A DNA stretch of 64,000 nucleotides from Deltaproteobacteria bacterium (GCA_016219015.1 JACRCL010000031.1:22159-86158), one strand, 5' to 3'. Positions 2,513 through 20,998 are shown, numbered from the stretch's first letter. Notes: generated from the letters alone by a model not told the origin. Numbers and translations: made by a program.

Positions 2513-2638
2513 CTTGCGTGAGAATCTCCTTTCCAACAAGGGAGGCAAGGCCGTTTCCAGCGCGTGCCCTGACGGCCAAGCCCCTTAGGCGGTTCAAGCC
2601 CTTAGGGGTATTGGCTCGGAGATTGAATTAACAAGTCT

Positions 2639-5405: not shown

Positions 5406-6182
5406 CTATATGTTATAGCCCCTCGGCGTAATCATTTTGCCGTTGTCCGTGAACGTCGAGGAGTTGCCCACTATTATGATGCTGAGCATGTCGGTCTTAT
5501 GGGATAGCTCACCCAAATCCCCGAGGGTCGTAACAATCGCCTCCTCGCCTTCCCTTGTGGCGTTCCTGACAAACCCGGCGGGCGTCTTATCATTCCTGTG
5601 CCGCCTGATTATCTCTATCGCCTTTTTAAGCCCCTCTGCCCTCTTCGAGCTTTTGGGGTTATAGAGGACTATGACGAAGTCGGCCTTTGCGGCGGCCTCG
5701 ACCCGCTCTTCTATCTTCGCCCATTCCGTAAGGAGGTCCGATAAGGATATTGACGCGAAGTCGTGCATTAGCGGCGCTCCCAATAGCGCGGACGCGGCCA
5801 CGAACGCCGGGACTCCGGGTATCACGCTTACCTCAACCCGCCTGCCCTTTAACAGCTCAAGTATCAGCCCGGCCATGCCGTATATACCCGAGTCCCCGGA
5901 AGATACTACGGCTATGGTCCTGCCCGACAGGGCGGCCTCTATCGCCCATCTGCACCGCTCCGTCTCTTCGGTCATGCCGTTGGAGAAGATTTCCTTGCCC
6001 TCAAGCAAGGGCGCGACAAGGCCGATGTACCTCTTGTACCCCACGACGCAGTCGGCCTCCTGAAGCGCCTCTTTCGCCCTTGCTGTCAGGTGCTTTAACC
6101 CGCCGGGGCCTATGCCTACGACGTATATCCTGCCCTTGCCAGCGCTATCGTTATCTTCCCGAGCCTTTTTTTCCTTCTCCAT
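5406..6182 (-). CDS. cbiH: cobalt-precorrin-3 (cobalt-factor III) C17-methyltransferase
   Basis: Near-colinear with Salmonella CbiH (VVGYKRY, ISSGDSGIYGMAGLILEL, LLGAPLMHDFASISLSDLLT, VGNSSTF..GKMITPRGY). Its annotated start overlaps cbiG by 66 nt. Confidence 0.85.
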   Translation of the reverse strand: MEKEKKAREDNDSAGKGRIYVVGIGPGGLKHLTARAKEALQEADCVVGYKRYIGLVAPLLEGKEIFSNGMTEETERCRWAIEAALSGRTIAVVSSGDSGIYGMAGLILELLKGRRVEVSVIPGVPAFVAASALLGAPLMHDFASISLSDLLTEWAKIEERVEAAAKADFVIVLYNPKSSKRAEGLKKAIEIIRRHRNDKTPAGFVRNATREGEEAIVTTLGDLGELSHKTDMLSIIIVGNSSTFTDNGKMITPRGYNI

Positions 6183-7183
6183 AGCCTCTTTCCGCCTGAT
6201 GAAAGGAGCGCCGCGTTCTCACAGACCCCGGCCGCCCCGGTATTTTCCTTTACGAACCTTGATACGCCAGAGGGCGGCTTAATCTTATTCAGCTCGCCCG
6301 CCGAATAGAAGTCTATCGGAAGCCCCGCCTTCTTCGCGTAATCCAATAGCCCCTTCTCATGCCTCTTGATATCTATGGTGGCGAGGTTCCTTATCGAAAG
6401 CAACGACACCCCGGCCCCCTCCATCATTTTTCTTATCCCGGCCTCTATCTCCTTTTCGCCGACGCCTTTTTTGCACCCTATCCCGACGACGAACTCGCGG
6501 GGCCTCAATACAAGCGCCCTCCGCCTGTCCGCCGGCCTCAATAATTTGTCCGATATTATCGCAACCGCCTTGCGGGTGTCCTTGGGAAAGGAGGCCCTCA
6601 AGATGTAATGCCTTCCGTACGCGGCCTTTATGCGCCAGCGTCTTCCAAGGTACCTGTCAACGATAACGGCCTTATTGCCTTTAAGTATCTCCGAGTTTAT
6701 CCTTTTTATCGCTTCGGGGTTCTCTATCTTGAGCGCGAATTTCTCGCAGACATCCTCTATCGAAGGGAGATTCGAGATGTCGGTTGCCGTAGTGATAACT
6801 GGCGTGGCGTTAAAGAACGACGCAAGCTCTTTCGTGAGCCTGTTCGCCCCGCCCATATGGCCGGAGAGAAGGCTTACGGCAAACCTCCCCTTTTCATCCA
6901 TCAATACGATTGCCGGGTCAAGGTGCTTACCCTTGAGTAGCGGCGCTATCGCCCTTACGGCTATGCCCGAGGCGGATATGAAAAGCAGCGCCCTGGAGCC
7001 CTTGAACGCCGCCTTTACCTCGTGCTTAAGCCTTCCGTCCTTAAGGGCCGCTGGCCGGTGTATGACGACATCCCGGTACTTCTTTTCGAGCCTTCTGGCT
7101 AAAGCAAGACCCCTGTCCGTTATCGGGAATACGGTCAAAGGCGCGACGGGTGTGAACCTTTCAGCCATCTCAGGATTTTTCAA
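6116..7183 (-). CDS. cbiG: cobalt-precorrin-5A hydrolase
   Basis: CbiG N-, mid- and C-domain architecture. It sits between cbiF-side genes and cbiH, as in anaerobic cbi operons. Confidence 0.8.
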   Translation of the reverse strand: MKNPEMAERFTPVAPLTVFPITDRGLALARRLEKKYRDVVIHRPAALKDGRLKHEVKAAFKGSRALLFISASGIAVRAIAPLLKGKHLDPAIVLMDEKGRFAVSLLSGHMGGANRLTKELASFFNATPVITTATDISNLPSIEDVCEKFALKIENPEAIKRINSEILKGNKAVIVDRYLGRRWRIKAAYGRHYILRASFPKDTRKAVAIISDKLLRPADRRRALVLRPREFVVGIGCKKGVGEKEIEAGIRKMMEGAGVSLLSIRNLATIDIKRHEKGLLDYAKKAGLPIDFYSAGELNKIKPPSGVSRFVKENTGAAGVCENAALLSSGGKRLWRRKKRLGKITIALARAGYTS

Positions 7184-7886
7184 GCATGGTCACGACCCCT
7201 TCGAGCCTGCTGACCATCAGGTTAAAGAGGCGCTCGCCCTTCTCCACGCTCGCCTTGCCGGGGTCGCCCCAGACAGCGCCCTTCCAGTATTTCACCTTAT
7301 CCTTTACCACCATCGGCCTGGGGAATTCGGGGTATTCCTCCTTTGCCCTGCCATTGACTAACCTCGGGGCGAGGTACAATACCAAAGACGTCTCCATCTC
7401 CCCGGCGTGGGAGTCGTTCTTTGTCTCCGCTATCTCTTCGAGCTCCTTGCCGAGCACCTCGTATATCGAGAACGCCGCTATCTTAAGCCCCGGCAGCTCG
7501 CCGACCAGGTCCTCTGCCGCCTCCTTGAGCGCCGCCATGTGCAGGCCCCCGCCGTGGCCCGATACGAGGACGAAGTTCCTCAGGTCCTGCCTGAAGCCAT
7601 CCCTCACGATATCCTTAGCTATGTGCCTCAATGTCCCGGCCCTTATGCCTATGGTGCCGGGGTGCTGCGCGGTAGACGTGCATACGCCGTACTGCAGAGG
7701 CGGGGCCATGAATACCCTGTCGTTCCTTTCGGCCGTTTTTTTCACGACCTCCCTTATTATGAGGGTGTCGGTATTAAGAGGCAGGTGCGAGCCGTGCGCC
7801 TCTATTGTGCCGAAGGGGACAATCAGCGTCCGCGCCTTCCTTACGGACTTTTTGAACCCGTCCATCGTCTTCTCACCGAGTATCAT
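7170..7886 (-). CDS. creatininase (creatinine amidohydrolase) family protein
   Basis: Creatininase-fold metal-ligand pattern (FGTIEAHGSHLPLNTD, SGHGGG, HAGEMETS). Embedded in the cbi operon. Confidence 0.65.
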   Translation of the reverse strand: MILGEKTMDGFKKSVRKARTLIVPFGTIEAHGSHLPLNTDTLIIREVVKKTAERNDRVFMAPPLQYGVCTSTAQHPGTIGIRAGTLRHIAKDIVRDGFRQDLRNFVLVSGHGGGLHMAALKEAAEDLVGELPGLKIAAFSIYEVLGKELEEIAETKNDSHAGEMETSLVLYLAPRLVNGRAKEEYPEFPRPMVVKDKVKYWKGAVWGDPGKASVEKGERLFNLMVSRLEGVVTMLEKS

Positions 7887-8260
7887 CGAAGCGCCTCCTT
7901 TTTAATGAACCGGCTGAAAACAAACGCGCCGAAGAGCCCCCCGGCCCCGTTCGCTATCATGTCGAGGACCTCGGCGCTACGCTCAGGGATGAAGCTCTGC
8001 CAGACCTCCATCAAAAACCCGAAGATGAAGCTGAACGCAAAAGCGGAGATGACGATAACGCGCCTTTTGTCCGCGCCGCTGCCGAAGGCCGAGGCGATAG
8101 CCCTGCCCGAGAGCGCCCCCATCACCGCGTACGCGAGGAAATGGAAGACCTTATCGAGCCCGACGATATCCGCTTGCGGGGGCTCCGGGTCTATCGAGAG
8201 GTAGATTATTACGGCCGAATAGACGACGAGCGGCAGCCAGTATATGAACGCCTTTTTCAT
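7883..8260 (-). CDS. VanZ-like family membrane protein
   Basis: 125 aa, 4 TM, VanZ motifs (DKvfHFlaY, FiPeRsaevlDmiaNgaG). Confidence 0.55.
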   Translation of the reverse strand: MKKAFIYWLPLVVYSAVIIYLSIDPEPPQADIVGLDKVFHFLAYAVMGALSGRAIASAFGSGADKRRVIVISAFAFSFIFGFLMEVWQSFIPERSAEVLDMIANGAGGLFGAFVFSRFIKKEALR

Positions 8261-9024
8261 TTCCTGAACCCGTGTTTGAAGCCCTTGTCGTAAAGGAGCG
8301 ACGCCGCGTGTGTGTCCCCTATCGCCTCACCGGCCATTATGAGGGCGTGGTTAGTTATCCCGGCCTTCTTTGCCTTGGCCGCTATATCCTTGAGGGTGCC
8401 GGTTATCTTTTTCTCGTCTTCCCATGTCGCCCTGTAGACTATGGCCGCGGGGGTCTCGGGCGGGTAGCCCTTTAGAAGCTCTTCTATGACCTTGTCTATC
8501 ATCCCGGCGCTCAAGAAGACGCAGATGCTCGCCCTGTGGCTTGACAGCGAAGACAGGCCCTCGGAGGCGGGCACCGGGGTCCTGCCCTCGAGCCTCGTGA
8601 ATATGACCGTCTGGGTTACTCCCGGCTTGGTGAATTCCTTCTTTAGTGCCGCAATTGCCGCGAACGCGGAGGATACGCCGGGGACTATCTCGTAATCGAC
8701 GCCTTCCCTGTCGAGCGTGTCGGCCTGCTCGCGCATGGCGCTGTAGAGGGACGGGTCGCCGGTATGAAGCCGGGCGACGTGCTTCCCGGCTTTGGCCGCC
8801 TTTACCATCATATCGGTTATCTCCTCAAGGTGCATCGAGGCGCTGTTATGCGCCTCCACGCCTTTGCGGCAGTATTTGAGAATATTGTCCTTTACCAGCG
8901 ACCCCGTATAGATGACTATATCGGCCTTCTTAAGGAGCCGGGAGCCTTTTACCGTAATAAGCTCCGGGTCGCCGGGGCCCGCGCCGATGAAGTGTATTAG
9001 GGTTTTTTTTGGGGTTCTGGCCAT
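8257..9024 (-). CDS. cbiF: cobalt-precorrin-4 C11-methyltransferase
   Basis: Tetrapyrrole methylase family, GAGPGDPELIT. Strong CbiF/CobM-type similarity. Confidence 0.85.
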   Translation of the reverse strand: MARTPKKTLIHFIGAGPGDPELITVKGSRLLKKADIVIYTGSLVKDNILKYCRKGVEAHNSASMHLEEITDMMVKAAKAGKHVARLHTGDPSLYSAMREQADTLDREGVDYEIVPGVSSAFAAIAALKKEFTKPGVTQTVIFTRLEGRTPVPASEGLSSLSSHRASICVFLSAGMIDKVIEELLKGYPPETPAAIVYRATWEDEKKITGTLKDIAAKAKKAGITNHALIMAGEAIGDTHAASLLYDKGFKHGFRK

Positions 9025-9029
9025 CTTCC

Positions 9030-9764
9030 TTATACGGCGGAACGCGGGTTTCTGATAACGAGCGTTGAGAAGTAATCGAGCCTCTTGCCCTTGAGTTTTT
9101 TTATGTCAGTCACTATCTCTTCCCCCGGCCAGCCGACGCGGGAGGCGAGGAACGCGCTATTCTCAAGCCCGAGCTCGAAGAGCATATCGAGGACACTGTC
9201 GAAGGCCTTGTTCACCTTCATCAATACTATCGTATCGAACGACTTTATCGACTCCCTTATCTCGTCGAGCGAGTACGACGCAGGTATGATTATAACCTTC
9301 TCGTCCGATTCCGCAAGAGGCACAAGCGCGCGTGAAGCAGCGGCTGTAAAAGACACGACCCCCGGTATCACCCTTACCTCCACGCCGGGCAGCGCTTCCG
9401 TTACAAGGGGCAGAAGGTAGCTGAACGTCGAGTAGAGCATCGGGTCGCCGAGAGTTATGAAGGCCGCGTCCTTGCCCTCCTTCAGCCTCTCCGCTATCAT
9501 GAAGGCCGCCTCCTTCCTCGATGAATTCAAAACCGCCTTATCCTTTGTCATGGGGAAGAGCAGCTCAAGCAGCTCTTTGTCCTTGGTATCGACTATCTTT
9601 TTTACGACCGAAAGGGCCTGGCTCTGCCCGTCGGAGGAGGTGTCCTTCGACCTCGGCACCGCGATAACCGGGCAGGCCTCGAGGGTCTTCAACGCCTTTA
9701 TCGTAATAAGCTCCGGGTCGCCGGGGCCGACGCCTACGCCGTAGAATATGCCGGTCCTTTTCAT
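9030..9764 (-). CDS. cbiL: cobalt-precorrin-2 C20-methyltransferase
   Basis: Tetrapyrrole methylase, GVGPGDPELIT. CbiL/CobI-type length and order. Confidence 0.8.
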   Translation of the reverse strand: MKRTGIFYGVGVGPGDPELITIKALKTLEACPVIAVPRSKDTSSDGQSQALSVVKKIVDTKDKELLELLFPMTKDKAVLNSSRKEAAFMIAERLKEGKDAAFITLGDPMLYSTFSYLLPLVTEALPGVEVRVIPGVVSFTAAASRALVPLAESDEKVIIIPASYSLDEIRESIKSFDTIVLMKVNKAFDSVLDMLFELGLENSAFLASRVGWPGEEIVTDIKKLKGKRLDYFSTLVIRNPRSAV

Positions 9765-10981
9765 AGGGGCCTCGTCCCCGATATTATGAACACGGGGTTA
9801 TTCGCGGAAAGGAGGCTAAGCCTGCCGAGGTCTTTCGCCCTTGAAAGGCCCACCTGCAGAAGCTCCTTCTCCCATCCCTTTTTTTTGAAAAAATCGAACG
9901 CGGCATGCGCCGTTTCAATGGTGACGGCGTTCACCACGGCCCTTCCGCCGGGCCTTACCCTTCGCGCGCAGTACGAAAGTATGGCCCGAAGCCCGGCCCC
10001 GCCGCCGCCCACGAATATAGCGTCAGGGCGAGGGAGCTTTTTAAGGCATAGCGGCGCCAGACCCTCGACCACCTCGACCCCTTCCGCGTTGAAGCGGTTT
10101 CTATTCCTCTTTATCTGCGCCGCCCTTTTTTTGTCTTTTTCTATGGCGTAGACCGGGCCGAAGGTCATGAAAGAGGCCTCTATGGCCACGGAGCCGCACC
10201 CCGAGCCTATGTCCCAGACAACGCTGTTATTATTGATATTGAGCTTGGACAGTGCTATGACCCTCAGCTCCTCCTTTGTTATCATGCCTTTGGAGTGGCT
10301 GAAGAGCGCGTCCGGGATACCGAGCCTCTTTGCAGCGGCCGGTCTTGCTGGTCTTTTGCGGATGAGCACCATTATATTCAAAGGCCCGAAAGACCTCATT
10401 GCGGCTATTTCAGCGAGGCTGCCGCGTGTTATCTTTTCCTTTTTCGTCCCGAGCGATTCGCATACAAAGGCCCTGTAGCCCGTCATTCCTTTGTCTATGA
10501 GCGCGCGGGCTATCCTCGAAGGGGTGTTCGTAGAGTCCGTAAAGACGGCAGCCCTGTCATGCGGGGCCAATTCACCGCAGAGCTCTTCGGGGGTCTTATT
10601 CCTCCCGTGGGCGCTCAATACCTTGACCCCGTTCATGTCCTCCTTTATCTTAGCGAACGCCTCCTGTACGGTACTCACGTTAGGGATGACCTCGACGTTC
10701 CTCTTCCCGAACCTCTTTATGATGAAAGAGGCGGCCCCGAAAAGGAGCGGGTCTCCGGTTGCGAGCACGACGACGCTCCCTTTCCTTTTGACCTCTTGCC
10801 TTATCTCGGAGGCGAGCCAGTCGAGGTCCGGCCCAATGGCGAGCTTTTTTGCCCCGGAGTCCGGGAACTCGTCGAGGTGCCTCTTCCCCCCGGCTATGAG
10901 GGTAGCCCTCTTTATCAGCCCGAGGGGTCTTTTGCGGAGGCTTTCCCTGCCTTTAAGCCCTATCCCTATCACGTGTATCAT
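9761..10981 (-). CDS. cbiET: cobalt-precorrin-6B/7 C5,C15-methyltransferase (decarboxylating), CbiE-CbiT fusion
   Basis: The N-terminal half is CbiE-like tetrapyrrole methylase. The C-terminal half is a CbiT-like SAM-dependent methyltransferase (VWDIGSGCGSVAIE). Confidence 0.8.
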   Translation of the reverse strand: MIHVIGIGLKGRESLRKRPLGLIKRATLIAGGKRHLDEFPDSGAKKLAIGPDLDWLASEIRQEVKRKGSVVVLATGDPLLFGAASFIIKRFGKRNVEVIPNVSTVQEAFAKIKEDMNGVKVLSAHGRNKTPEELCGELAPHDRAAVFTDSTNTPSRIARALIDKGMTGYRAFVCESLGTKKEKITRGSLAEIAAMRSFGPLNIMVLIRKRPARPAAAKRLGIPDALFSHSKGMITKEELRVIALSKLNINNNSVVWDIGSGCGSVAIEASFMTFGPVYAIEKDKKRAAQIKRNRNRFNAEGVEVVEGLAPLCLKKLPRPDAIFVGGGGAGLRAILSYCARRVRPGGRAVVNAVTIETAHAAFDFFKKKGWEKELLQVGLSRAKDLGRLSLLSANNPVFIISGTRPL

Positions 10982-12072
10982 CAGCAGACGCAGACTATGT
11001 CGTTATCGTACCCGACGAGTATCGCCCTTACCTTGCAAGGGCCGTTTAAAAGCGAAAGGGCGTTCTTCTTGACCATGCCGCAGACCACTTTAAGGATACC
11101 GGGAAGCCCCCCGTCTTTCAACAGGTAAAATACCTCTCTCGCGGTATTCGCTGCCTCGACCCTTTTAATAAACCCTTCGCCCGCATTGAATTTCCCGCAA
11201 AGCTCCGCGAGAAAGCCGAACTCGACGCTTGAGTCCTCGCAGTGCGTCTCGAAATGGCCTGAGGCGAGCTTGGTGAACTTGCCGAACTGCCCGGCTATTG
11301 TTATTCTTTTGAGTCCCCTTTTGGCCGAGTCTTTTATGGCGAAGCCCATGTGGTCGCCGGTGAGTATGAAGGCCGCCTCCGGCAGCCTTAAATGCCTCTC
11401 CACGACCTTCTCGCTCGACCTGCCCGTGGAGAAGACGACCTCTTTGCAACCCTGCGCCGTCGCCACGTCCACCCCGCATGAGATGGAATGGGTATACGCC
11501 TTCAGCGACATCGGCTCCACTATGCCGCTTGTGCCGAGTATCGATATCCCGCCCGCTATCCCGAGGCGCGGGTTCATCGTCTTCCTGGCAAGGGCCCTGC
11601 CATCCGGCACGGAGATGGTCACCTCGACGGAGGGGACGACCCCCGCCTGCCTTGCGGCTTCGAGCACCGCCTTCCTTATCATCTTTAGGGGCACGGGGTT
11701 TATGGCGGGCCTGCCCGGTGGTATCTTAAGCCCCGGCTTTGTGACCAGCCCGACGCCCTCGCCGCCCCTGATAGTCACCCTCGGCCTTTTTTTATTCTCG
11801 CCCCTGTACTCCACCTCGGAGATTATCTCGGCCCCGTTAGTCACGTCCGGGTCGTCGCCCGCGTCCTTTATTATTACGGCACGCGCCATGTTGCCGGAAG
11901 TCTTTACCGATCCGACCTTGATCTTAATGGTTTTGCCCGAAGGGAGCGTAACGTCCACGGACTTTCTTCCGGCCGGACTGGCCCCAAAAAGCGACAGTGC
12001 CGCTGCCTTTGAACCGGCAGCGGCACATGTGCCCGTAGTAAAACCTCTTCTCAACTTCTTATTCCGCTTCAA
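10981..12072 (-). CDS. cbiD: cobalt-precorrin-5B C1-methyltransferase
   Basis: N-terminal RRGFTTGTCAAA motif and full CbiD length. Confidence 0.85.
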   Translation of the reverse strand: MKRNKKLRRGFTTGTCAAAGSKAAALSLFGASPAGRKSVDVTLPSGKTIKIKVGSVKTSGNMARAVIIKDAGDDPDVTNGAEIISEVEYRGENKKRPRVTIRGGEGVGLVTKPGLKIPPGRPAINPVPLKMIRKAVLEAARQAGVVPSVEVTISVPDGRALARKTMNPRLGIAGGISILGTSGIVEPMSLKAYTHSISCGVDVATAQGCKEVVFSTGRSSEKVVERHLRLPEAAFILTGDHMGFAIKDSAKRGLKRITIAGQFGKFTKLASGHFETHCEDSSVEFGFLAELCGKFNAGEGFIKRVEAANTAREVFYLLKDGGLPGILKVVCGMVKKNALSLLNGPCKVRAILVGYDNDIVCVC

Positions 12073-12478
12073 TAGTCCCCTTAAAACCGCTCTTCCAGAA
12101 AAGGCCCAGGACAGCCCCGAGGAGGACCGCCAACAAGAGCCCCTGCAACGCCTCGGGCGCGTTGAAATGGTACCTGCCCGGCTCCATCCCGGAAAGGACA
12201 GCCCCTCCCGCCCTCAGGACTATCCAGATGGAAGTCGATACGGCTATAGCCTTAAATACAACGCTCCTGAAAGGGATGAGGCGGGCAGCCGCGAACAGGA
12301 ACCCGGCGGACGCGACCCCGAAGACGGCCCCGCCTATCGTAAACGAGGCGAGCGCGCTCAAAAAACCCGCCTCCAGGGGGAAGACCCCCGTAAACGAGTT
12401 TACCGCAAGCGCCAGCCATCCCCAGATGATGCCGGATATGGCGCCTGCGGTAATTGAGTTGCTTAAAGACCTTTCCAT
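12059..12478 (-). CDS. small polytopic membrane protein, putative CbtA-like cobalt transporter subunit (short form)
   Basis: 139 aa, about 4 TM. Lies immediately downstream of cbtB inside the cbi operon. Assignment is by context only. Confidence 0.35.
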   Translation of the reverse strand: MERSLSNSITAGAISGIIWGWLALAVNSFTGVFPLEAGFLSALASFTIGGAVFGVASAGFLFAAARLIPFRSVVFKAIAVSTSIWIVLRAGGAVLSGMEPGRYHFNAPEALQGLLLAVLLGAVLGLFWKSGFKGTIEAE

Positions 12479-12490
12479 TTTCAGGTTGTT

Positions 12491-12664
12491 TTAATGGCAG
12501 CCCATGCCTATCGCGTGCCTGAAGTCATGGAACGCGTCGTGCACCCCGGGCGCCACCGAGTCCATCCCGTACGCGATAACGGCGAAAGTGAACGCAACTC
12601 CGACAAGGACGAGGGCCGTCACCACGGCCTTTTTCATCCCGGCGCTCTCGAGTATCCTTTCCAT
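12491..12664 (-). CDS. cbtB: CbtB, putative cobalt transporter small subunit
   Basis: Below the ORF-track size cutoff. Minus-strand ORF MERILESAGMKKAVVTALVLVGVAFTFAVIAYGMDSVAPGVHDAFHDFRHAIGMGCH, with the hallmark C-terminal HDxxHDxRHxxGxxCH metal-binding motif. AGGAGG RBS lies 5 nt upstream. Confidence 0.7.
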   Translation of the reverse strand: MERILESAGMKKAVVTALVLVGVAFTFAVIAYGMDSVAPGVHDAFHDFRHAIGMGCH

Positions 12665-12688
12665 TAAAGACCTCCTACAATTGTATTC

Positions 12689-13972
12689 TTAAAAGAAAGC
12701 CTGAAGCCTTATGCCGTATAAGAAAATCTTTGCGGCGTCCCTGTCCCCGCCGGCGTTTATGACGTACTGGAGGTCCGGGGAGATATGGAAGCCCCTGCCG
12801 GGGGTGCTGTCAGATACCGCGTAGCTGTAGTAAAGCTCCATGTAGTGCTCGGTGCCTGACTTGAAGCCGGGCGTGGACGATTCCTTAAAGTCCTTGTAGT
12901 CCTTGCCCATGAAGGTCGCGCCGTACGCGAACCCGACCGAGTCGTTCGGCCTGCCGTAGTTCTCACCCGTGTAACTGAACCCGCCGCTTACGTGCCTGTC
13001 GAACTGCGCCACCTTCTCCCTCTGGACGCCGGCCCTGAGCCATACGCCGAGGGTATCGGTTATGTACTGGTCGAAGCTAAGGCCGAAGCCGCTGTTCTCG
13101 GCCCTGGCGAGGTCCGGGTCGTTCGGGTTGGCTGTATTGGCCGCATCCGGCCTCCCCTGCCTGTTCCAGTAATAAAACCTGTAATTGCCGTCTTTGTCAA
13201 GTGGTTTGAGCTTAAAGTTCAATTCCGCCATTAAAAAAGGCTTGTCGAAGGTGTCCGTAAAGTCCCCGTCGCCCTCGAAGGCGCCGAGGCTTATATCGAC
13301 GTTCTCAACGGGCCACCAGGTAAGCCTCGCGCCGGGGCCGTAGAAATTCTCGCTCCCGCCGAACTCTATCGTCGGGTTGTTCACGAATGTCGTGGCCAGG
13401 AACTGGGTCCTTTCGCTGTTCGCGAATTCGTTCGCGTCGAAGTACCCGGTGATGTCGAGCTTGCCGACCGAGGCCACGAGGCCGGGGGTAATGTTATGCT
13501 CGTAATATACCTGGGTAAGGTGGACGCCGTCGTTATTGAACGACTCTATGTCCGCGTTATACCCCGTGGTGTTTGCGTTGGGTGCCGTAAAGAACGCGGG
13601 CAGGTTCTGTATCCCGGCCCCCTGGACGTAATCGAGGACGACCACGGCCCTGCCGTCCCTGCCTACCGGGGACTCTATCGCGATATCGGCCGACATGGCC
13701 GCCGCGCCCTTCTGCCTCAGGTCGCCCTTGATGCGGTTAACTCCGTGGGCCGAGACGGTGAGGTCCCCGCTCACCTTGAGCCCGTAGAGGCTGTGGATCG
13801 GGTGGAGCTTGTGGCCGAGCTCATCGACCACCTCGGAGTCCTTCACCCTCTTTTCCAGCTCGTCGAGCCTTGACCTGATCTCATCTATCTCTTTTTTATC
13901 ATCAGCCGCCGTAGCGCTTTGACACATGAACACGAACAACAAGGCAAAGACCGAACTCAACAGCTTCTTCAT
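12689..13972 (-). CDS. outer-membrane beta-barrel porin (OprB-like/carbohydrate-selective porin-like) with N-terminal coiled coil
   Basis: Signal peptide MKKLLSSVFALLFVFMCQSATA. Coiled-coil segment, alternating beta-strand pattern and C-terminal aromatic residue (…RLQAFF). The likely start at 13972 has an AAGGAGA RBS. The ORF-track start 14044 is an extension. Confidence 0.55.
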   Translation of the reverse strand: MKKLLSSVFALLFVFMCQSATAADDKKEIDEIRSRLDELEKRVKDSEVVDELGHKLHPIHSLYGLKVSGDLTVSAHGVNRIKGDLRQKGAAAMSADIAIESPVGRDGRAVVVLDYVQGAGIQNLPAFFTAPNANTTGYNADIESFNNDGVHLTQVYYEHNITPGLVASVGKLDITGYFDANEFANSERTQFLATTFVNNPTIEFGGSENFYGPGARLTWWPVENVDISLGAFEGDGDFTDTFDKPFLMAELNFKLKPLDKDGNYRFYYWNRQGRPDAANTANPNDPDLARAENSGFGLSFDQYITDTLGVWLRAGVQREKVAQFDRHVSGGFSYTGENYGRPNDSVGFAYGATFMGKDYKDFKESSTPGFKSGTEHYMELYYSYAVSDSTPGRGFHISPDLQYVINAGGDRDAAKIFLYGIRLQAFF

Positions 13973-14009
13973 CTCCTTTTCGCCCTCCGTGGTATGTTTT
14001 TCATTCCAT

Positions 14010-14822
14010 TTACTCGTGCTCGTCATGGGTCGAGTACGGCCCATGGCTGTGCCTGTGGGTCAAACCCCCGTGCCTGTGCGTATGCTCGTGTATTATGTTC
14101 GCCCTCAAAAGCAGGTCCTTGTCACTCAAGACCTTCGGCGTCGCAGCGTCAGCGGCTATCGCGTGGGACTCGTCGAGCAATATCACCCGCCCGGCGAAGT
14201 CCTCGACGAGGCTCAAGTCGTGGGTGGCAATTATGAAGGTCTTCTTAAGCTCCTTCAGCCCCTGCATTATCTCAAAGAGCCAGACCTGGGTCCTCGGGTC
14301 GAGCCCGTTCGTGGGCTCATCGAGCAAAAGCACGTCCGGGTTTATCGAGAGGACCGACGCTATCGCCACCTTCTTCTTCTCCCCGGAGCTTAGCGTGTAC
14401 GGCGGCCTGTCCCGTAGATTCGAAAGCCCGAGCATCTCTAAAAGACCCTCGACCCTCTCCTTAAGCCCGTCCTTCGATAGATTGAGCTGTAGCGGCCCGA
14501 AGGCGACCTCGTCGAACACGGTCGGGCAGAAGAGCTGGACGTCCGGCTCGGGGAAGACGAAGCCGACCCTCTCCCTGAAGCACTTGAGGAAGCCGCCCTT
14601 GAGGGTCTCCTCCTTAAGCTCGCTGCCCATGAACCGGACAACGCCCTCGCTCGGGAAGACAAGCCCGTCGAGCATCTTAAGGAGCGTGGACTTCCCGCTC
14701 CCGTTCGCCCCGAGTATGGCTACGCTCTCTCCGGCCTTGACCGTAAGGCTTATGCCTCTGAGGGCGAACGACCCGTTGTACGCGAAGCCCGCGCCCTCGA
14801 GCGTGAATATTTCTTTTTCCAT
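14010..14822 (-). CDS. cbiO: cobalt ECF/ABC transporter ATP-binding protein with His-rich C-terminal tail
   Basis: Walker A GANGSGKST, signature LSSGEKKKV, Walker B LLLDEP. C-terminal tail HEHTHRHGGLTHRHSHGPYSTHDEHE. Start taken at the internal MEKEIFTLEG. Confidence 0.75.
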   Translation of the reverse strand: MEKEIFTLEGAGFAYNGSFALRGISLTVKAGESVAILGANGSGKSTLLKMLDGLVFPSEGVVRFMGSELKEETLKGGFLKCFRERVGFVFPEPDVQLFCPTVFDEVAFGPLQLNLSKDGLKERVEGLLEMLGLSNLRDRPPYTLSSGEKKKVAIASVLSINPDVLLLDEPTNGLDPRTQVWLFEIMQGLKELKKTFIIATHDLSLVEDFAGRVILLDESHAIAADAATPKVLSDKDLLLRANIIHEHTHRHGGLTHRHSHGPYSTHDEHE

Positions 14823-14842
14823 GGCCTTGGCCAGCCCCTCAG

Positions 14843-15718
14843 TTAAAGTCCCAACGACAGGAAGAAGACGAACCACGCAAGCCCTACCCAGAGGAGGTCT
14901 TTCTTCCCCATCCGCGCCGGGCCTATCGCGTCGAGTTTCCCGTTAAAGCCCCGGGAGGCCATAGCCATACTGACCTCTTCGGCGGTAGATAATGATTTCT
15001 TTAATATTAACGCTATCCTGGAGGCGAACCAGTCCTGGGATTCCCTGAGGCTCCCTTTGGCAAAGGTCCTCGATTTGCGCGCCAGTGTGGAGTCCTCGGC
15101 CACCTTTAAAAGGACGAATATGTACCTGAACGTCATGAAGAGCGTTGTTACGAAGAACGCGGGCAGGAACTGCCTCAAGCCCCTGAAAAAATCCGTCTGC
15201 CTCGTGGTAAGCAGGAGTAGCATCACGAGCGAGGCCATGAGGCTCACCCTTGAGATGAAAAAAAACGCAGTCCCCGCGCCCTGCCGGGTAACGTAGATAC
15301 CCATAAAACCAGCTATTGGCTCGCCCGGCGTCACGAAGCTGAAAAATACCGGCAGCAAGAGCACGGAAGTGAAAAGGAAAGAGGGCAAGACCCTTTTTAT
15401 GAGCGCGCTTAAACCCACCTTTGATAGCAGGGCTATCGCTAATGTTACGAGGAATACCCCGCTGAGCGCGACAACCCCGGAGGCGGCCACGCAGGCGAGG
15501 ACGAGCGCGAGGACGCCGAGTATCCGGGCCCTCGGCTCGACGGCCTGCAGCAGGCCTTTTTTAGAAGCATAGCCCTCGAAGTAGACCATCTTGCCGAAGA
15601 AAGAGGCGATGCCTTCGAGGTTCTTCTCCAGGAACCCCGGCGCGGAGTCCTTGCCGTCCGCAAGGCAGGGCGCGTCCCTTGCCTCCTTGAGCCATGCGGG
15701 GAGTTTTACTTCGGCCAT
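14843..15718 (-). CDS. cbiQ: cobalt ECF transporter transmembrane (T) component
   Basis: CbiQ-like polytopic protein. Start taken at MAEVKL (15718). The ORF-track start 15994 overlaps cbiMN and is likely spurious. Confidence 0.7.
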   Translation of the reverse strand: MAEVKLPAWLKEARDAPCLADGKDSAPGFLEKNLEGIASFFGKMVYFEGYASKKGLLQAVEPRARILGVLALVLACVAASGVVALSGVFLVTLAIALLSKVGLSALIKRVLPSFLFTSVLLLPVFFSFVTPGEPIAGFMGIYVTRQGAGTAFFFISRVSLMASLVMLLLLTTRQTDFFRGLRQFLPAFFVTTLFMTFRYIFVLLKVAEDSTLARKSRTFAKGSLRESQDWFASRIALILKKSLSTAEEVSMAMASRGFNGKLDAIGPARMGKKDLLWVGLAWFVFFLSLGL

Positions 15719-16680
15719 AGCCTGCCCCAGAGATATACTATCAGCACTATCATTCCGCTCCCTATGGCCGCGGATAAGACATAGAATAAAGCGGAGGCGC
15801 CCCTCCCGGCCCCATAAAACGTAAACGTATAGCCGGGCAGCAACCCTTTCCACACCCCGCCAAGGACCTCCATGCCCGCGGGCACATAGCCGATGAGTTC
15901 CTTTATGCCGGAACTCCCCCACTCGCCCCACGGCGTCACGGCGGCGATAAGCCCGAGAGGGGTCAATACGATGAGGAATATCAAGACGGCCCACAGGGGC
16001 TTTAAGCCCTCCCGCCTTTTTATAAGCCCCTCGTCAGTCTTATATATGTAAGATATTATGAGCGCGGTCCCGAGCGCCTCTACCGGGCCGAAGAATAAGA
16101 GGTGCGGGAGCATCATGGCTGGTATCGCGATGGAAAGTGGATACGGCGCGTAAAGGGGCCTGCCGTCAGCCCCGTGGGCTATCGCAGGCTGGATGCCGAG
16201 CTCGACGGCCACAAACAGCGCCGCGAGGTTCAGGGCTATATAAGCGGCAAGGGCTGAAGCGAAGCCCCTCCTGGGCCTCCCCGGGCTTCTTCCGGCGAGC
16301 GCGCCGTAGATATAATAGCCGCTAAAGCTCATCACGAGCGCCATGTTGAAGGAGTTCGCCCCGAGGGTCGTTATCCCGCCGTCGGCGAAGATGAAGGCCT
16401 GCAGCGTAAGGGCTATCGTAAGAGCTATCACCCCGGCCCAGGGGCCGAGCGCGACAGATACTACAACGGCCCCCACCATGTGGCCCGATGAGCCGCCCGG
16501 TATGGGGATATTGAGCATCATCACCACGAAGGCGAAGGACGCGCCGAGGGCGAGCAGCGGTATCTCTTTGAGCTTTAGCTCTTTTTCTACTTTACGGGAC
16601 GAGACGTACCATGCGGGGAGCATCAATGCGTAGAAAAAGGCGCAGGTCCTGGGGCTCAGGTATCCGTCAGGTATGTGCAT
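15706..16680 (-). CDS. cbiMN: cobalt ECF transporter substrate-capture component, CbiM-CbiN fusion
   Basis: Begins MHIPDGYL, the essential CbiM N-terminus. 324 aa with a C-terminal CbiN-like 2-TM extension. Confidence 0.8.
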   Translation of the reverse strand: MHIPDGYLSPRTCAFFYALMLPAWYVSSRKVEKELKLKEIPLLALGASFAFVVMMLNIPIPGGSSGHMVGAVVVSVALGPWAGVIALTIALTLQAFIFADGGITTLGANSFNMALVMSFSGYYIYGALAGRSPGRPRRGFASALAAYIALNLAALFVAVELGIQPAIAHGADGRPLYAPYPLSIAIPAMMLPHLLFFGPVEALGTALIISYIYKTDEGLIKRREGLKPLWAVLIFLIVLTPLGLIAAVTPWGEWGSSGIKELIGYVPAGMEVLGGVWKGLLPGYTFTFYGAGRGASALFYVLSAAIGSGMIVLIVYLWGRLWPK

Positions 16681-16694
16681 AGGCCCTTAGCAGA

Positions 16695-16744
16695 CTTCAA
16701 ATACCTCCATCCGCTTCGTTGGCTTCAAACGTCATTGCAACGTA
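16695..16744 (+). repeat. short interspersed repeat, family E copy 1
   Basis: CTTCAAATAccTCCatCcGCTTCGTTGGCtTC...GTCATtgcAACGTA. About 85% identical to 20796-20843. Confidence 0.7.
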
Positions 16745-16758
16745 CTTTCACATTCACC

Positions 16759-16800
16759 GATAACCGATAACTGATAACCGATAACTGATAACTGATAACC
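16759..16800. repeat. heptanucleotide tandem array, 6 units of GATAAC(C/T) (rc (A/G)GTTATC)
   Basis: gataaccgataactgataaccgataactgataactgataacc. Lies between the cbiXC stop and the cbiMN start. Confidence 0.9.
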
Positions 16801-16803
16801 GTC

Positions 16804-17832
16804 CTATATCCGCGCGCCCGCCTTCTCGGCGGCATTCGCGGCCTCTATCGCCAGAGCGTTGACAATCGCCACGGCCACGGTGCTCCCGCCCTTCCTCCCG
16901 GAGGAGGCTATGAATTCGAGCCCGCTTTTCATAAGCTCTTCCTTTGCCTCGGCCGCGCCCACGAAGCCCACAGGCACGCCGATTATGAGCGCGGGGCGCG
17001 GCGCTCCGGCCCTTATGAGCCTCAGTAGCTCGAATAACGCCGTAGGGGCGTTGCCTATGGCCACGACCGAGCCGTTCAGGAGCCTTACGGCCTTCCTCAT
17101 CGAGGCCGCCGTCTTCGTGATATTCTCCATCCTTGCCGTAAGCTCCACATCCTTGTCCGATGAGAAGCAATATACCTTCGCGCCGAACGGGTCGAGCCTG
17201 TACTTCATTACCCCGGCCTCCACCATCCTTACATCGGTTATTACCGGGCGGCCGGCCCTTATGGCCTCTATGCCGGCCTCGACCGCGCCGGGGCTGAAGC
17301 GAAGCAACTCCCTGAACTCGAAGTCCGCTGTTGTATGTATGACCCTTTTAACTATCGGCAGCTCGATCGGGGATATACCTCTTTCATCGAGTTCGCCCCC
17401 TATTATCCTGAAGCTCTCCTCCTCTATCGGGTGCCGCCCGAGGGGCGCTTCCACTGCCTTGACCTGTGTTTCCGCGAGCCTCTCAAGGGTTATGTCTATG
17501 AGCTTATCGTGGAAGCCGAGCCATTTCGCGTAGGTGATCTTGAGCCCCTGGTGGGCTGAGAGCGCCTTTTCTATCTCGGCCGGAATGTCCTGCGTCACAT
17601 GGAGGCCGGGGTAGAGGAAGTAAGGCATGACGACAATATCGTTAAAGCCCTTTGCTACAAGGCTGTTTACGCCTTCCTGAAAATCTGGATCTGCCAGCTG
17701 GAGGAAGGCGGGCAATACCTCGCCGTAGCCCCCGGCCCTTTTTACGGCAACGGCGACCTTCTTCAAGGTCTCGTTCGCCTCTTTCGCCTTGCTGCCGTGG
17801 CCGAGGAGCAGTATCGCCTTATCAGTGTCCAT
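16804..17832 (-). CDS. cbiXC: sirohydrochlorin cobaltochelatase (small CbiX type) fused to cobalt-precorrin-8 methylmutase (CbiC)
   Basis: The N-terminal ~120 aa are CbiX-small (ILLLGHGSK..., VVMPYFLYPGLHV). The C-terminal ~210 aa are CbiC/CobH (VIHTTADFEF, GNAPTALFELL, GVPVGFVGAAEAKEEL). Start ATG at 17832 has a GGGAAAGGG RBS. Confidence 0.8.
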   Translation of the reverse strand: MDTDKAILLLGHGSKAKEANETLKKVAVAVKRAGGYGEVLPAFLQLADPDFQEGVNSLVAKGFNDIVVMPYFLYPGLHVTQDIPAEIEKALSAHQGLKITYAKWLGFHDKLIDITLERLAETQVKAVEAPLGRHPIEEESFRIIGGELDERGISPIELPIVKRVIHTTADFEFRELLRFSPGAVEAGIEAIRAGRPVITDVRMVEAGVMKYRLDPFGAKVYCFSSDKDVELTARMENITKTAASMRKAVRLLNGSVVAIGNAPTALFELLRLIRAGAPRPALIIGVPVGFVGAAEAKEELMKSGLEFIASSGRKGGSTVAVAIVNALAIEAANAAEKAGARI

Positions 17833-17897
17833 CGTGTACGCCCTTTCCCTTAAACCGGTTTCTACCCTTAACAAGCTGCTGAAAAACTATTTTAGTC

Positions 17898-17988
17898 TGT
17901 CATTCTGAGCGGAGCGAAGAATCTCGGGGCTGATTGAATCAACAAGTTACGGGATTCTTTCGTCGCCTTCGGCTCCTCAGAATGACAA
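17898..17988. repeat. MITE-like imperfect inverted-repeat element, family A copy (TGTCATTCTGAGCGGAGCGAAGAATC ... GATTCTTTCGTCGCCTTCGGCTCCTCAGAATGACA)
   Basis: Terminal inverted repeats of about 26-35 nt around a 20-nt core. Inserted between the riboswitch terminator and the cbiXC start. A second copy lies at 37212-37300. Confidence 0.8.
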
Positions 17989-18000
17989 CTTCGTGGATTT

Positions 18001-18250
18001 AAATAAAAAAACCCCGCCTTCGTATGAAGGTAGGGCTCCCCAAAAAATATACCAGCCCTCACCTTCTTTACCTTCGAAGAGCCTCGTGAGGATTATCCGG
18101 GCAGGTATCCTGACTTACGGCTTCGTCCTAATCTCCGCGCCTTCCCGGCTTGAGGCCAGTGGCGGTTTGCGGATTTCGTAGCCGATTACAGTGGCGGGTC
18201 CGTTCCCGAATCTCTGCTCAAGCAGACCACGGGATTCCCTTTTAGCCCCT
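18001..18250 (-). promoter_or_regulatory. cobalamin (AdoCbl) riboswitch with terminator-type expression platform, heading the cbi operon
   Basis: The minus strand reads AAAAGGGAATCCCGTGG...GACCCGCCACTGTAA...GCCACTGGCCTCAAGCCGGGAAGGCG. This matches the B12-box and conserved GGGAA/GCCACTG core. A hairpin plus T7 run follows at about 18001-18040. Confidence 0.8.
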
Positions 18251-18357
18251 TGGCGGGCCACCCGGACAAGCTGTTAAATGATTACATTTCAGTGCAGGCA
18301 AGTCAATACAAATCAAAATGGCGGGACCCCCGGTCCCGCCATCTAATAGCATATATG

Positions 18358-20147: not shown

Positions 20148-20192
20148 ATCGGACTCTCCTTATTTTTACAGTATAACAAAAGAGAGTTAGAC

Positions 20193-20220
20193 TTGGAACA
20201 GCTTAAATCGCTGATATAAT
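20193..20220 (+). promoter_or_regulatory. putative sigma70 promoter of cobO (TTGGAA-N16-TATAAT). The -10 ends 6 nt before the ATG, with no SD, so the mRNA may be leaderless.
   Basis: acTTGGAAcagcttaaatcgctgaTATAATttaagaATGG. Confidence 0.4.
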
Positions 20221-20226
20221 TTAAGA

Positions 20227-20790: not shown

Positions 20791-20795
20791 GCAGG

Positions 20796-20843
20796 CTTCA
20801 AATAAGTCCGTCTGCTTCGTTGGCATCGTCTTGTCATAACGTA
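20796..20843 (+). repeat. short interspersed repeat, family E copy 2
   Basis: CTTCAAATAagTCCgtCtGCTTCGTTGGCaTC...GTCATAACGTA. Homologous to 16695-16744. Confidence 0.7.
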
Positions 20844-20941
20844 AGGTGAGTACGTCTCATTCCTAAGCTCCTTGCCGCCTCGCATCCGGGGCTTTTTGAG
20901 CAGCCTGAACACGCACAGCGCACTGAAGAGAACAAAATAAA

Positions 20942-20972
20942 AGGGGGGAGGCTTTTTAAGCCTCCCCCCTTT
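20942..20972. terminator. bidirectional intrinsic terminator between convergent cobO and the sigma factor gene
   Basis: GGGGGGAGGCtttttaaGCCTCCCCCC. It is flanked by an A-run upstream and a T-run downstream. Confidence 0.75.
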
Positions 20973-20998
20973 TATAGCGGGATATTTTTCATCAGCCC

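What the first reader, a model, noticed from the sequence alone, without database searches (positions are those of the whole stretch)
5406..18250. A roughly 12.8-kb riboswitch-headed cbi mega-operon with two cobalt uptake systems (cbiMNQO and cbtBA) and an outer-membrane porin embedded among the biosynthetic genes
A single cobalamin riboswitch (18001-18250) precedes, on one strand and with only short gaps, cbiX-cbiC, cbiMN-cbiQ-cbiO, a porin with N-terminal coiled coil, cbtB-cbtA(-like), cbiD, cbiET, cbiL, cbiF, a VanZ-like gene, a creatininase-family gene, cbiG and cbiH. Redundant cobalt importers plus a dedicated porin in one operon are unusual. CbiO carries a C-terminal His-rich tail (HEHTHRHGGLTHRHSHGPYSTHDEHE) that could store or sense Co/Ni. 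cbtB (58 codons) is missing from the ORF track. The porin may be the outer-membrane gate for cobalt or corrinoids.
Basis: partly seen in the sequence, partly recalled or inferred. Interest (0 to 1): 0.5.

Follow-up and report, generated by a model that had tools for sequence, protein, structure and literature searches.

The report
Riboswitch-controlled cobalt porin in B12 operon
One vitamin-B12-sensing RNA switch heads a ~12.9-kb operon that makes the B12 ring and also carries cobalt uptake parts for both membranes, including an outer-membrane pore annotated as a sugar porin whose relatives all sit next to cobalt, nickel or zinc uptake genes.

Summary
A cobalamin riboswitch lies at 18083-18280 on the minus strand. 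It is followed by a conserved terminator hairpin and then 15 tightly packed genes: cbiX-cbiC, cbiM(N), cbiQ, cbiO, an OprB-family porin, cbtB, a 139-aa membrane protein, cbiD, cbiET, cbiL, cbiF, a VanZ-like gene, a creatininase-family gene, cbiG and cbiH.

Two corrections apply. The 139-aa protein is not CbtA but a small, previously unnamed 4-helix family that pairs with CbtB. The arrangement is not a one-off, because it recurs in about 30 related metagenome loci.

Rearranged loci are the informative ones:
- In one, HupE replaces CbiMNQO and a riboswitch abuts the porin gene.
- In a Nitrospinae genome, a riboswitch heads a compact cbtB-p158-porin operon.
- Other loci lack the porin or lack cbtB-p139.

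More distant porin relatives (30-45% identity) sit with NikR, ZnuA-type binding proteins, NikM/NikK systems or NiFe hydrogenase.

The best reading is a B12-repressed operon in which the porin admits Co2+ and two inner-membrane systems import it for CbiX. Transport is inferred, not shown. I rate it a new variant of a known kind, of moderate interest.

The parts
18316..18344 (-). Terminator-like hairpin that ends the upstream dacZ-like gene and marks the 5' border of the unit
   Evidence: 13-pair stem with a T-rich tail. Sequence read.
18278..18306 (-). Sigma-70-like promoter candidate (TTGACT, 17 nt spacer, AATCAT, with TG) immediately before the aptamer
   Evidence: This is a consensus match only and was not tested.
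18083..18280 (-). Cobalamin riboswitch aptamer (RF00174)
   Evidence: 106.3 bits against a gathering score of 31.5, full-length model match. The same element lies upstream of cbiXC in L003, L007, L009, L016, L021 and L027.
18000..18040 (-). Expression platform: GC-rich hairpin (CCCUACCUUC...GAAGGCGGGG) plus a U7 run, a likely intrinsic terminator. The upstream GAAGGUGAGGG is a possible anti-terminator strand.
   Evidence: A hairpin plus T5-T9 run (T7-T9 in five of six) sits 77-87 nt after the aptamer in six related loci, with different stem sequences.
16804..17832 (-). cbiX-cbiC fusion: sirohydrochlorin cobaltochelatase plus cobalt-precorrin-8 methylmutase
   Evidence: CbiX 93.6 bits, CbiC 261 bits. 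NF004449 bifunctional model aligned across residues 19-343.
15706..16680 (-). cbiM with a C-terminal CbiN-like extension (substrate-capture component of the ECF cobalt transporter)
   Evidence: CbiM 204.7 bits; PDGLE 20.4 bits, below its cutoff. NF005598 362 bits over residues 1-317.
14843..15718 (-). cbiQ (ECF T component); its start overlaps the end of cbiM by 13 nt
   Evidence: TIGR02454 132.8 bits against a cutoff of 111.8..
14010..14822 (-). cbiO (ECF ATPase) with a conserved C-terminal His-rich tail, NIIHEHxHRHGxxxHxHSHGPYSxHDEHE
   Evidence: Solved CbiO structures align only up to about residue 243 of 270.
12689..13972 (-). OprB-family outer-membrane porin: signal peptide, N-terminal helix (coiled-coil-like), GHKLHPIHS motif, 16-strand barrel. 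Candidate Co2+ channel.
   Evidence: PF04966 102.4 bits; 16 strands and helix 24-46; best match is P. putida OprB 4gey (E 7e-22). Context evidence.
12491..12664 (-). cbtB: 57 aa, one membrane helix, C-terminal HDAFHDFRHAIGMGCH motif
   Evidence: PF09489 36.2 bits against a cutoff of 27; the motif is invariant and shared with a canonical CbtB from Labrenzia.
12059..12478 (-). p139: 4-helix membrane protein of a small unnamed family, the constant partner of this CbtB and not CbtA
   Evidence: (48 representatives among 1.84 billion proteins).
10981..12072 (-). cbiD
   Evidence: TIGR00312 393.9 bits.
9761..10981 (-). cbiE-cbiT fusion
   Evidence: TIGR02467 180 bits, TIGR02469 121 bits.
9030..9764 (-). 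cbiL
   Evidence: TIGR01467 252 bits.
8257..9024 (-). cbiF
   Evidence: TIGR01465 330 bits.
7883..8260 (-). VanZ-like membrane protein (role unknown; absent from some related operons)
7170..7886 (-). Creatininase-family metal-dependent amidohydrolase (role unknown; absent from L007 and L092)
   Evidence: PF02633 186 bits..
6116..7183 (-). cbiG
5406..6182 (-). cbiH
   Evidence: TIGR01466 314 bits.
4214..5383 (-). deoB (phosphopentomutase), 22 nt after cbiH. Possibly co-transcribed, but not a constant neighbour.
   Evidence: Present after cbiH in many relatives, absent in L007 and L008.

Best explanation
This is one B12-repressed transcription unit. It joins the cobalt-dependent part of the anaerobic corrin pathway to a cobalt supply route that crosses both membranes.

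**Regulation.** When adenosylcobalamin is scarce, the riboswitch leader does not form its terminator and RNA polymerase reads through the roughly 12.9 kb. When B12 is plentiful, the terminator hairpin plus U-run forms just after the aptamer and the whole set is shut off, which also limits cobalt intake.

**Cobalt route.** The OprB-type porin lets Co2+ cross the outer membrane. This is inferred. Co2+ is then imported by the ATP-driven ECF transporter CbiM(N)QO and, separately, by a second small membrane module. That module is CbtB (one helix with a histidine-rich end) plus a new 4-helix partner, p139. It works like the predicted CbtAB system but is not a member of it.

**Use of the cobalt.** CbiX inserts the cobalt. 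CbiL, H, F, G, D, E, T and C build the ring.

**CbiO tail.** The conserved histidine-rich tail sits on the cytoplasmic side. It most likely binds incoming Co2+, either to pass it on or to slow the pump when cobalt is high. This too is inferred.
For: **Shown**
- Riboswitch identity.
- A conserved terminator platform whose stem sequences vary between relatives.
- Gene identities.
- Tight spacing and uniform composition.
- No strong same-strand terminator in any intergenic gap.

**Porin linked to cobalt**
- All close homologues lie between an inner-membrane cobalt transporter and cbtB.
- In L008, CbiMNQO is replaced by HupE/UreJ and a cobalamin riboswitch ends 25 nt before the porin start codon.
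- In the Nitrospinae locus L089, a riboswitch heads cbtB-p158-porin-cobO in a different gene order, with no cbiMNQO.

**Porin linked to metal cations in general**
- Relatives at 30-45% identity sit in NikR-porin-ZnuA loci (8 loci).
- Others sit beside DUF4198/NikM/Q/O systems or beside NiFe hydrogenase plus NikMN. None of these has a cobalamin riboswitch.
- A GH(K/R)LHPIH motif before the first barrel strand is shared by the cobalt-linked and the nickel/zinc-linked members.
- Invariant residues are mostly acidic: 12 D/E against 5 K/R.
- OprB-domain porins of cyanobacteria carry inorganic ions and iron (PMC8707739).
- A FUR-controlled OprB porin before feoAB was predicted in Geobacter (PMC545781).

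**CbtB-p139 as a module in its own right**
- L092 has cbtB-p132 as the only transporter candidate in its cbi operon.
- L027 has the porin and CbiMNQO without cbtB-p139.
Against: - No experiment of any kind. Transport, selectivity, metal binding and the transcript are all inferred.
- Nearly all close relatives share flanking genes as well (dacZ, spoU, deoB). Much of the conserved order is therefore shared ancestry. The independent evidence rests on a handful of rearranged loci (L008, L027, L089, L092) and on the more distant porin groups.
- The porin model has only moderate confidence (pLDDT 72), and I could not inspect its pore.
- A 123-nt gap (cbiXC/cbiM) and several consensus promoter matches inside genes leave room for internal starts.
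- CbtAB itself has never been shown to carry cobalt (PMC2667541), so 'works like CbtAB' leans on a prediction.
Confidence: 0.6

Rival explanations
1. The porin is a general small-solute or cation pore. It is merely co-expressed with the operon, raising outer-membrane permeability when B12 synthesis is on, and has no cobalt preference.
For: - It is a plain 16-strand OprB-type barrel with no plug or TonB box.
- Reviews treat porin passage of cobalt as unselective diffusion (PMC7689651).
- Relatives occur with nickel and zinc systems too, so the clade as a whole is not cobalt-specific.
Against: - Each porin subgroup keeps to one kind of metal locus and one regulator: a B12 riboswitch or NikR.
- A conserved histidine motif and acidic invariant residues suggest a metal site.
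- Dedicated regulation would add little if the housekeeping porins were already sufficient.
Confidence: 0.2
2. CbtB-p139 is not a second importer. It is an accessory that captures Co2+ in the periplasm below the porin and passes it to CbiM(N)QO or HupE, or it senses cobalt.
For: - The module stays next to the porin when the main transporter is swapped (L008).
- By the positive-inside rule, the CbtB histidine motif and the conserved E36 and MEPxRYH loops of p139 face the periplasm.
- Five helices in total is small for a transporter.
Against: - L092 and L089 carry cbtB-p13x with no other transporter gene in the operon.
- Canonical CbtB pairs with CbtA in genomes that lack other cobalt transporters (PMC2667541).
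- L027 manages without it.
Confidence: 0.25
3. The porin admits corrinoids or B12 precursors (salvage), not the metal ion.
For: - B12 riboswitches often control corrinoid uptake.
- In L089 the porin is followed by the corrinoid adenosyltransferase gene cobO/btuR.
Against: - Known corrinoid uptake uses 22-strand TonB-dependent BtuB (PMC7689651). This is a 16-strand OprB-like barrel, a type known for sugars and ions.
- Its neighbours are metal transporters, and no btuCDF genes are present.
- Its relatives are in nickel and zinc loci.
Confidence: 0.07

Closest known systems
B12-riboswitch-controlled cbi operons with embedded cbiMNQO (for example Geobacter; Rodionov 2004, PMC545781)
   Same: A cobalamin riboswitch, cbiX close to cbiMNQO, and anaerobic-route cbi genes on one strand.
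   Different: This operon also carries a porin, cbtB plus a new partner, and VanZ-like and creatininase-family genes. It lacks cbiJ and cbiA. CbiO has a conserved His-rich tail.
OprB of Pseudomonas (PF04966; PDB 4gey), carbohydrate-selective porin
   Same: Passes the family HMM (102 bits). The predicted 16-strand barrel has OprB as its best structural match (E 7e-22, TM 0.67).
   Different: Only 16% identity. It has an N-terminal helix and a His motif. It is never next to sugar genes in the loci seen, always next to metal uptake genes, so the database name 'carbohydrate porin' is probably wrong for function.
Metal-linked OprB-domain porins: cyanobacterial Slr1908/Slr1841 (PMC8707739) and the FUR-regulated OprB porin before feoAB in G. 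sulfurreducens (PMC545781)
   Same: An OprB-type barrel used, or predicted to be used, for inorganic cation entry and co-regulated with an inner-membrane metal transporter.
   Different: Those are linked to iron and controlled by FUR or expressed constitutively. The cyanobacterial ones carry an SLH domain. Here the link is to cobalt, the control is a riboswitch, and the gene sits inside a biosynthetic operon.
Predicted TonB-dependent cobalt receptors behind B12 riboswitches (reviewed in PMC7689651)
   Same: An outer-membrane protein placed under a B12 riboswitch beside cobalt transporters.
   Different: Those are energised 22-strand receptors. This is a passive 16-strand porin. The review states that no cobalt-specific outer-membrane protein has been confirmed.
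CbtAB predicted cobalt transporter (PF09490 and PF09489)
   Same: CbtB is present with its invariant HDAxHDxRHxxGxxCH end. It is adjacent to a small multi-helix membrane protein, in a B12 context.
   Different: The partner has 4 helices and about 139 aa, against about 230 aa for CbtA. It shows no detectable similarity to CbtA (hhalign 8%).

Membership tests
Cobalamin riboswitch (RF00174) | Covariance-model score above the curated threshold over the full aptamer | tested here: met
   106.3 bits against 31.5, model positions 1-189.
Cobalamin riboswitch (RF00174) | An expression platform that can switch downstream genes off | tested here: met
   hairpin plus U-run, conserved in six relatives with different stem sequences. 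Ligand response was not tested.
OprB porin family (PF04966) | Family HMM above the gathering score | tested here: met
   102.4 bits against 22.9.
OprB porin family (PF04966) | 16-strand barrel resembling OprB | tested here: met
   16 strands, pLDDT 72; 4gey is the top match, TM 0.67.
OprB porin family (PF04966) | Carbohydrate role, that is, linkage to sugar uptake genes | tested here: not met
   neighbours are cobalt, nickel, zinc or heavy-metal genes in every locus examined.
CbtB (PF09489) | Family HMM above the gathering score, one membrane helix, and a histidine-rich C-terminus | tested here: met
   36.2 bits against 27; invariant HDAxHDxRHxxGxxCH shared with Labrenzia CbtB. The stricter TIGR02459 model is not reached (28.4 against 64.4).
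CbtB (PF09489) | Obligate adjacency to CbtA | tested here: not met
   The neighbour is p139, not CbtA. Seven canonical plasmid CbtB genes all have CbtA next to them.
CbtA (PF09490), tested for the 139-aa protein | Sequence match to the family model | tested here: not met
   One search gave no hit. In one search, none of the 25 families shown for the 35 scanned members was PF09490 at E<=10. In one search the best family member scored 10.6 bits, while control CbtA proteins scored 146-186 bits.
CbtA (PF09490), tested for the 139-aa protein | Profile-to-profile similarity to canonical CbtA | tested here: not met
   hhalign probability 7-8% over the last helix only.
CbtA (PF09490), tested for the 139-aa protein | Five membrane helices and about 230 aa | tested here: not met
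   four helices in 139 aa; family members are almost all 110-160 aa.
CbtA (PF09490), tested for the 139-aa protein | Adjacency to CbtB in a B12 context | tested here: met
ECF cobalt transporter CbiMNQO | M, N, Q and O components present together | tested here: met
   The N part is a weak PDGLE match (20.4 against 27) fused to CbiM, and NF005598 aligns over the full length.
ECF cobalt transporter CbiMNQO | Cobalt rather than nickel assignment, by B12 riboswitch or cbi linkage | tested here: met
ECF cobalt transporter CbiMNQO | Cobalt transport activity | not testable with these tools
   Needs uptake assays.
Anaerobic corrin-ring pathway (cbi) | A complete enzyme set from cobalt insertion to cobyrinate | tested here: not met
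   CbiX, L, H, F, G, D, E, T and C are present. No CbiJ or CbiA is in the operon. The rest of the window was judged only from ORF N-termini.

The most novel reading that the evidence does not exclude
The porin, CbtB and p139 form a portable, riboswitch-controlled cobalt uptake module that spans both membranes. That would make the porin the first dedicated, non-TonB outer-membrane cobalt channel, and p139 a new CbtB partner family. The porin would be one branch of a wider clade of 'carbohydrate porins' that are really transition-metal (Co/Ni/Zn) channels, each wired to its own metal regulator.
Probability: 0.4. Interest if true: 0.7.

Novelty: new variant of a known kind. Interest (0 to 1): 0.55.

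Why it matters
How cobalt crosses the outer membrane is an open point. A 2021 review states that no cobalt-specific outer-membrane protein has been confirmed (PMC7689651).

- **Testable candidate.** This finding gives a concrete porin with a clear regulatory link and natural 'swap' variants.
- **Annotation.** A whole group of proteins named 'carbohydrate porin' probably serves metal uptake instead.
- **CbtB.** It has a second, unrecognised partner family, which bears on how the still-unproven CbtAB system works.
- **CbiO tail.** The conserved tail points to a cytoplasmic metal site on an ECF ATPase.

The cbi genes and the riboswitch themselves are ordinary.

Tried and rejected
1. **p139 as CbtA: rejected.** Pfam and NCBIfam gave no hit. 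A relaxed Pfam scan of 35 family members listed no CbtA match. hhalign against one and then seven canonical CbtA sequences gave 7-8%.
3. **Wider CbtB search.** It returned only this lineage. Canonical CbtB/CbtA had to be fetched from plasmids instead.
4. **Genome-collection scan with the porin.** It gave only 4 loci. The metagenome scan with an alignment was far more useful.
5. **Internal terminator inside cbiD (12026-11997).** A strong stem but a poor U-tail, lying in the codons of the conserved CbiD N-terminus. I judged it coincidental.
6. **Leader between the terminator and cbiX.** It holds an 11-bp inverted repeat, but the fold is no better than shuffles.
7. **Creatininase-family gene.** No paper links it to cbi genes, and the PDB relatives are uninformative.
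8. **Rodionov 2006 Ni/Co transporter paper.** It is not held in the library.


Full report
**1. The observation**

A cobalamin riboswitch aptamer (RF00174, 106.3 bits against a gathering score of 31.5) lies at 18083-18280 on the minus strand. It is preceded by a terminator-like hairpin that closes the upstream dacZ-like gene (18344-18316) and by a promoter-like site (18306-18278).

Fifteen minus-strand genes follow, identified with Pfam and NCBIfam:

| Gene | Coordinates |
|---|---|
| cbiX-cbiC fusion | 16804-17832 |
| cbiM with a CbiN-like end | 15706-16680 |
| cbiQ | 14843-15718 |
| cbiO | 14010-14822 |
| OprB-family porin | 12689-13972 |
| cbtB (57 aa) | 12491-12664 |
| 139-aa membrane protein with no family match | 12059-12478 |
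| cbiD | 10981-12072 |
| cbiET | 9761-10981 |
| cbiL | 9030-9764 |
| cbiF | 8257-9024 |
| VanZ-like | 7883-8260 |
| creatininase-family | 7170-7886 |
| cbiG | 6116-7183 |
| cbiH | 5406-6182 |

Gaps run from -67 to +37 nt, except for 123 nt between cbiXC and cbiM. GC content is even at 0.54-0.61. deoB follows cbiH after 22 nt. The quoted CbiO tail is present exactly. The operon has no cbiJ or cbiA. The window matches a Deltaproteobacteria metagenome-assembled genome.

**2. Regulation**

About 50-80 nt after the aptamer there is a GC-rich hairpin followed by U7 (near 18040-18000). An upstream GAAGGUGAGGG could pair with the left arm of that hairpin instead. Six related loci have a hairpin plus a T5-T9 run (T7-T9 in five of them) 77-87 nt after the aptamer, with different stem sequences. 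This is what a conserved intrinsic terminator looks like.

I therefore infer transcriptional attenuation of the whole unit. No intergenic same-strand terminator was found. The strongest internal hairpin lies inside the cbiD coding sequence and has a poor U-tail. Ligand response and transcript length remain untested.

**3. The porin**

The porin passes the OprB model at 102 bits. An AlphaFold model built from 14 sequences (pLDDT 72) shows a signal peptide, a helix at residues 24-46 and 16 strands. Its best solved match is P. putida OprB (4gey, E 7e-22, TM 0.67). Next come OmpM1 and DcaP, porins that also have an N-terminal helical stalk. Public databases call its homologues 'carbohydrate porin'.

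**4. Where porin relatives sit**

I collected 4 genome loci, 80 metagenome loci and several looked-up contigs, and mapped the window's proteins onto them.

*Close relatives (49% identity or more).* Among these, 24 of 25 evaluable loci have CbiO or HupE just upstream, and 25 of 27 have cbtB and the p139 homologue just downstream. Most also share flanking genes (dacZ, spoU, deoB), so this is largely one inherited operon. The rearranged cases carry the independent weight:

- **L008:** cbiC, HupE/UreJ, then a cobalamin riboswitch ending 25 nt before the porin start, then porin-cbtB-p144-cbiD.
- **L027:** porin followed directly by cbiD, with no cbtB or p139.
- **L089 (Nitrospinae):** a riboswitch, then cbtB-p158-porin-cobO, with no cbiMNQO and a different gene order.
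- **L092 (Nitrospinae):** cbiXC-cbtB-p132-cbiD, with neither porin nor cbiMNQO.

The main transporter, the porin and the CbtB pair are therefore three separable modules, and all three are kept under B12 control.

*More distant relatives.* Porins at 30-45% identity fall into other metal contexts:

- NikR-porin-ZnuA-type binding protein, in eight loci.
- Porin with DUF4198 (the periplasmic Ni/Co component)-NikM-NikQ-NikO.
- cbiM-cbiN-porin.
- NiFe-hydrogenase large subunit, maturation protease, porin, NikM-PDGLE.

None of these loci has a cobalamin riboswitch.

The weakest hits (24-32% identity) are essentially one soil operon. There an OprB-like barrel fused to a CarboxypepD_reg domain lies between a heavy-metal-binding-domain protein, a YncE-type propeller and an RND pump. 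Two other loci have a cation-diffusion-facilitator gene next door.

*Sequence features.* A GH(K/R)LHPIH(S/A) motif just before the first strand is conserved in 12 of 14 aligned cobalt-linked porins, and in the NikR-linked and NikM-linked ones. Invariant charged residues are mostly acidic.

*Assessment.* Taken together, these point to metal cations, not sugars or corrinoids, as the substrate. This is association, not proof.

**5. CbtB and its partner**

CbtB passes PF09489 (36 bits against 27). It shares an invariant HDAxHDxRHxxGxxCH end with a canonical Labrenzia CbtB.

The 139-aa protein belongs to a small family:
- An exhaustive HMMER search of 1.84 billion representatives found 48 members, nearly all 110-160 aa.
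- The model has four membrane helices, pLDDT 79.
- A relaxed Pfam scan of 35 members listed no CbtA match.
- Seven canonical CbtA proteins, each next to a CbtB on plasmids, score 146-186 bits on PF09490 where tested. p139 relatives reach 10.6 bits at best.
- Profile-to-profile comparison gives 7-8% probability.

So it is not CbtA, though it occupies CbtA's place. By the positive-inside rule, its conserved E36 and MEPxRYH loops and the CbtB histidine end should face the periplasm. This is an inference.

**6. CbiO tail**

The motif NIIHEHxHRHGxxxHxHSHGPYSxHDEHE is conserved in 18 distinct loci. It lies beyond the region that aligns with solved CbiO structures. CbiO is the cytoplasmic ATPase, so the tail is a candidate cytoplasmic cobalt site, used for hand-off or for feedback. 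This is untested.

**7. Literature**

- Rodionov 2004 described Geobacter cbi clusters with cbiMNQO under B12 control. Separately, the paper predicted a FUR-controlled OprB-family porin before feoAB as an iron porin (PMC545781).
- Cyanobacterial SLH-OprB porins carry inorganic ions and affect iron content (PMC8707739).
- A 2021 review lists only TonB-dependent candidates for cobalt and says none is confirmed (PMC7689651).
- CbtAB remains a prediction (PMC2667541).
- Four searches for porin plus B12 riboswitch, cobalt or NikR found no description of this arrangement. The library is incomplete.

**8. Verdict**

The cbi genes, the fusions and the riboswitch are ordinary. Four things are new:
- a riboswitch-controlled OprB-type porin tied to cobalt uptake;
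- evidence that its wider clade is metal-linked and probably misnamed;
- a new CbtB partner family;
- a conserved His-rich CbiO tail.

I rate this a new variant of a known kind, with interest 0.55. Confidence by part:

| Claim | Confidence |
|---|---|
| Single B12-repressed operon | about 0.85 |
| Porin as a cobalt entry route | about 0.6 |
| CbtB-p139 as an independent importer | about 0.5 |

Noticed in passing
window 2510-2633 (-), with ORFs 1769-2548 (-) and 684-1772 (-): A Moco (molybdenum/tungsten cofactor) riboswitch (66 bits) lies just upstream of a likely permease and an ABC ATPase, presumably molybdate/tungstate uptake. The same riboswitch appears downstream of the operon in L027 (20061-20180).
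   Followed up: partly
window 7170-8260 (-): A VanZ-like gene and a creatininase-family amidohydrolase gene sit between cbiF and cbiG, with 4-nt overlaps. The pair recurs in most related operons. VanZ is missing in L008 and L009, and both genes are missing in L007 and L092. Neither has a known role in B12 synthesis.
   Followed up: partly
window 5406-17832 (-): The operon has every anaerobic ring-synthesis enzyme from CbiX to CbiC except the reductase CbiJ, and it also lacks CbiA. Nothing resembling them was evident elsewhere in the window from ORF N-termini, but this was not tested with models.
   Followed up: partly
window 4214-5383 (-): deoB (phosphopentomutase) starts 22 nt after cbiH, with no terminator between them, and follows cbiH in many relatives. 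It may ride on the same B12-controlled transcript.
   Followed up: partly
window 17899-17986 (-): An 11-bp perfect inverted repeat (GTCATTCTGAG ... CTCAGAATGAC) lies in the 170-nt leader between the terminator and the cbiX start. It overlaps a probably spurious 56-codon ORF (17892-18062). The overall fold is no better than shuffles.
   Followed up: partly
window 11997-12026 (-): A strong 11-pair hairpin (9 GC pairs) lies inside the 5' end of cbiD, in the codons for the conserved TGTCAAAG motif. Its U-tail is poor, so it is probably not a terminator.
   Followed up: no
L050-L088 (for example L062 7356-15784): Soil metagenome loci share an operon in which a ~550-aa protein (CarboxypepD_reg domain plus an OprB-like barrel, with a Met/His-rich N-terminus) lies between a heavy-metal-binding-domain protein, a YncE-type beta-propeller and an RND pump. 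This may be another metal-linked use of the OprB barrel.
   Followed up: partly
L004 4609-6501: One relative has a 2.2-kb insertion between the p139 homologue and cbiD. It carries a 410-aa secreted protein and a 215-aa protein with a CxxC (DsbA-like) motif.
   Followed up: no
L096 and L098 (plasmids of Aminobacter and Rhizobium johnstonii): Canonical cbtB-cbtA pairs lie directly after nitrile hydratase genes (in L096 and L098, directly after the nitrile hydratase accessory-protein gene), not after B12 genes. This fits cobalt supply to a cobalt enzyme.
   Followed up: no
window 18479-23086 (-): The upstream neighbours are conserved in the same order in distant relatives (L005, L007): a DacZ-type diadenylate cyclase, a SpoU methylase, a sigma-70 factor, a peroxiredoxin and Fur. 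Most of the operon conservation therefore reflects long-range shared synteny.
   Followed up: partly
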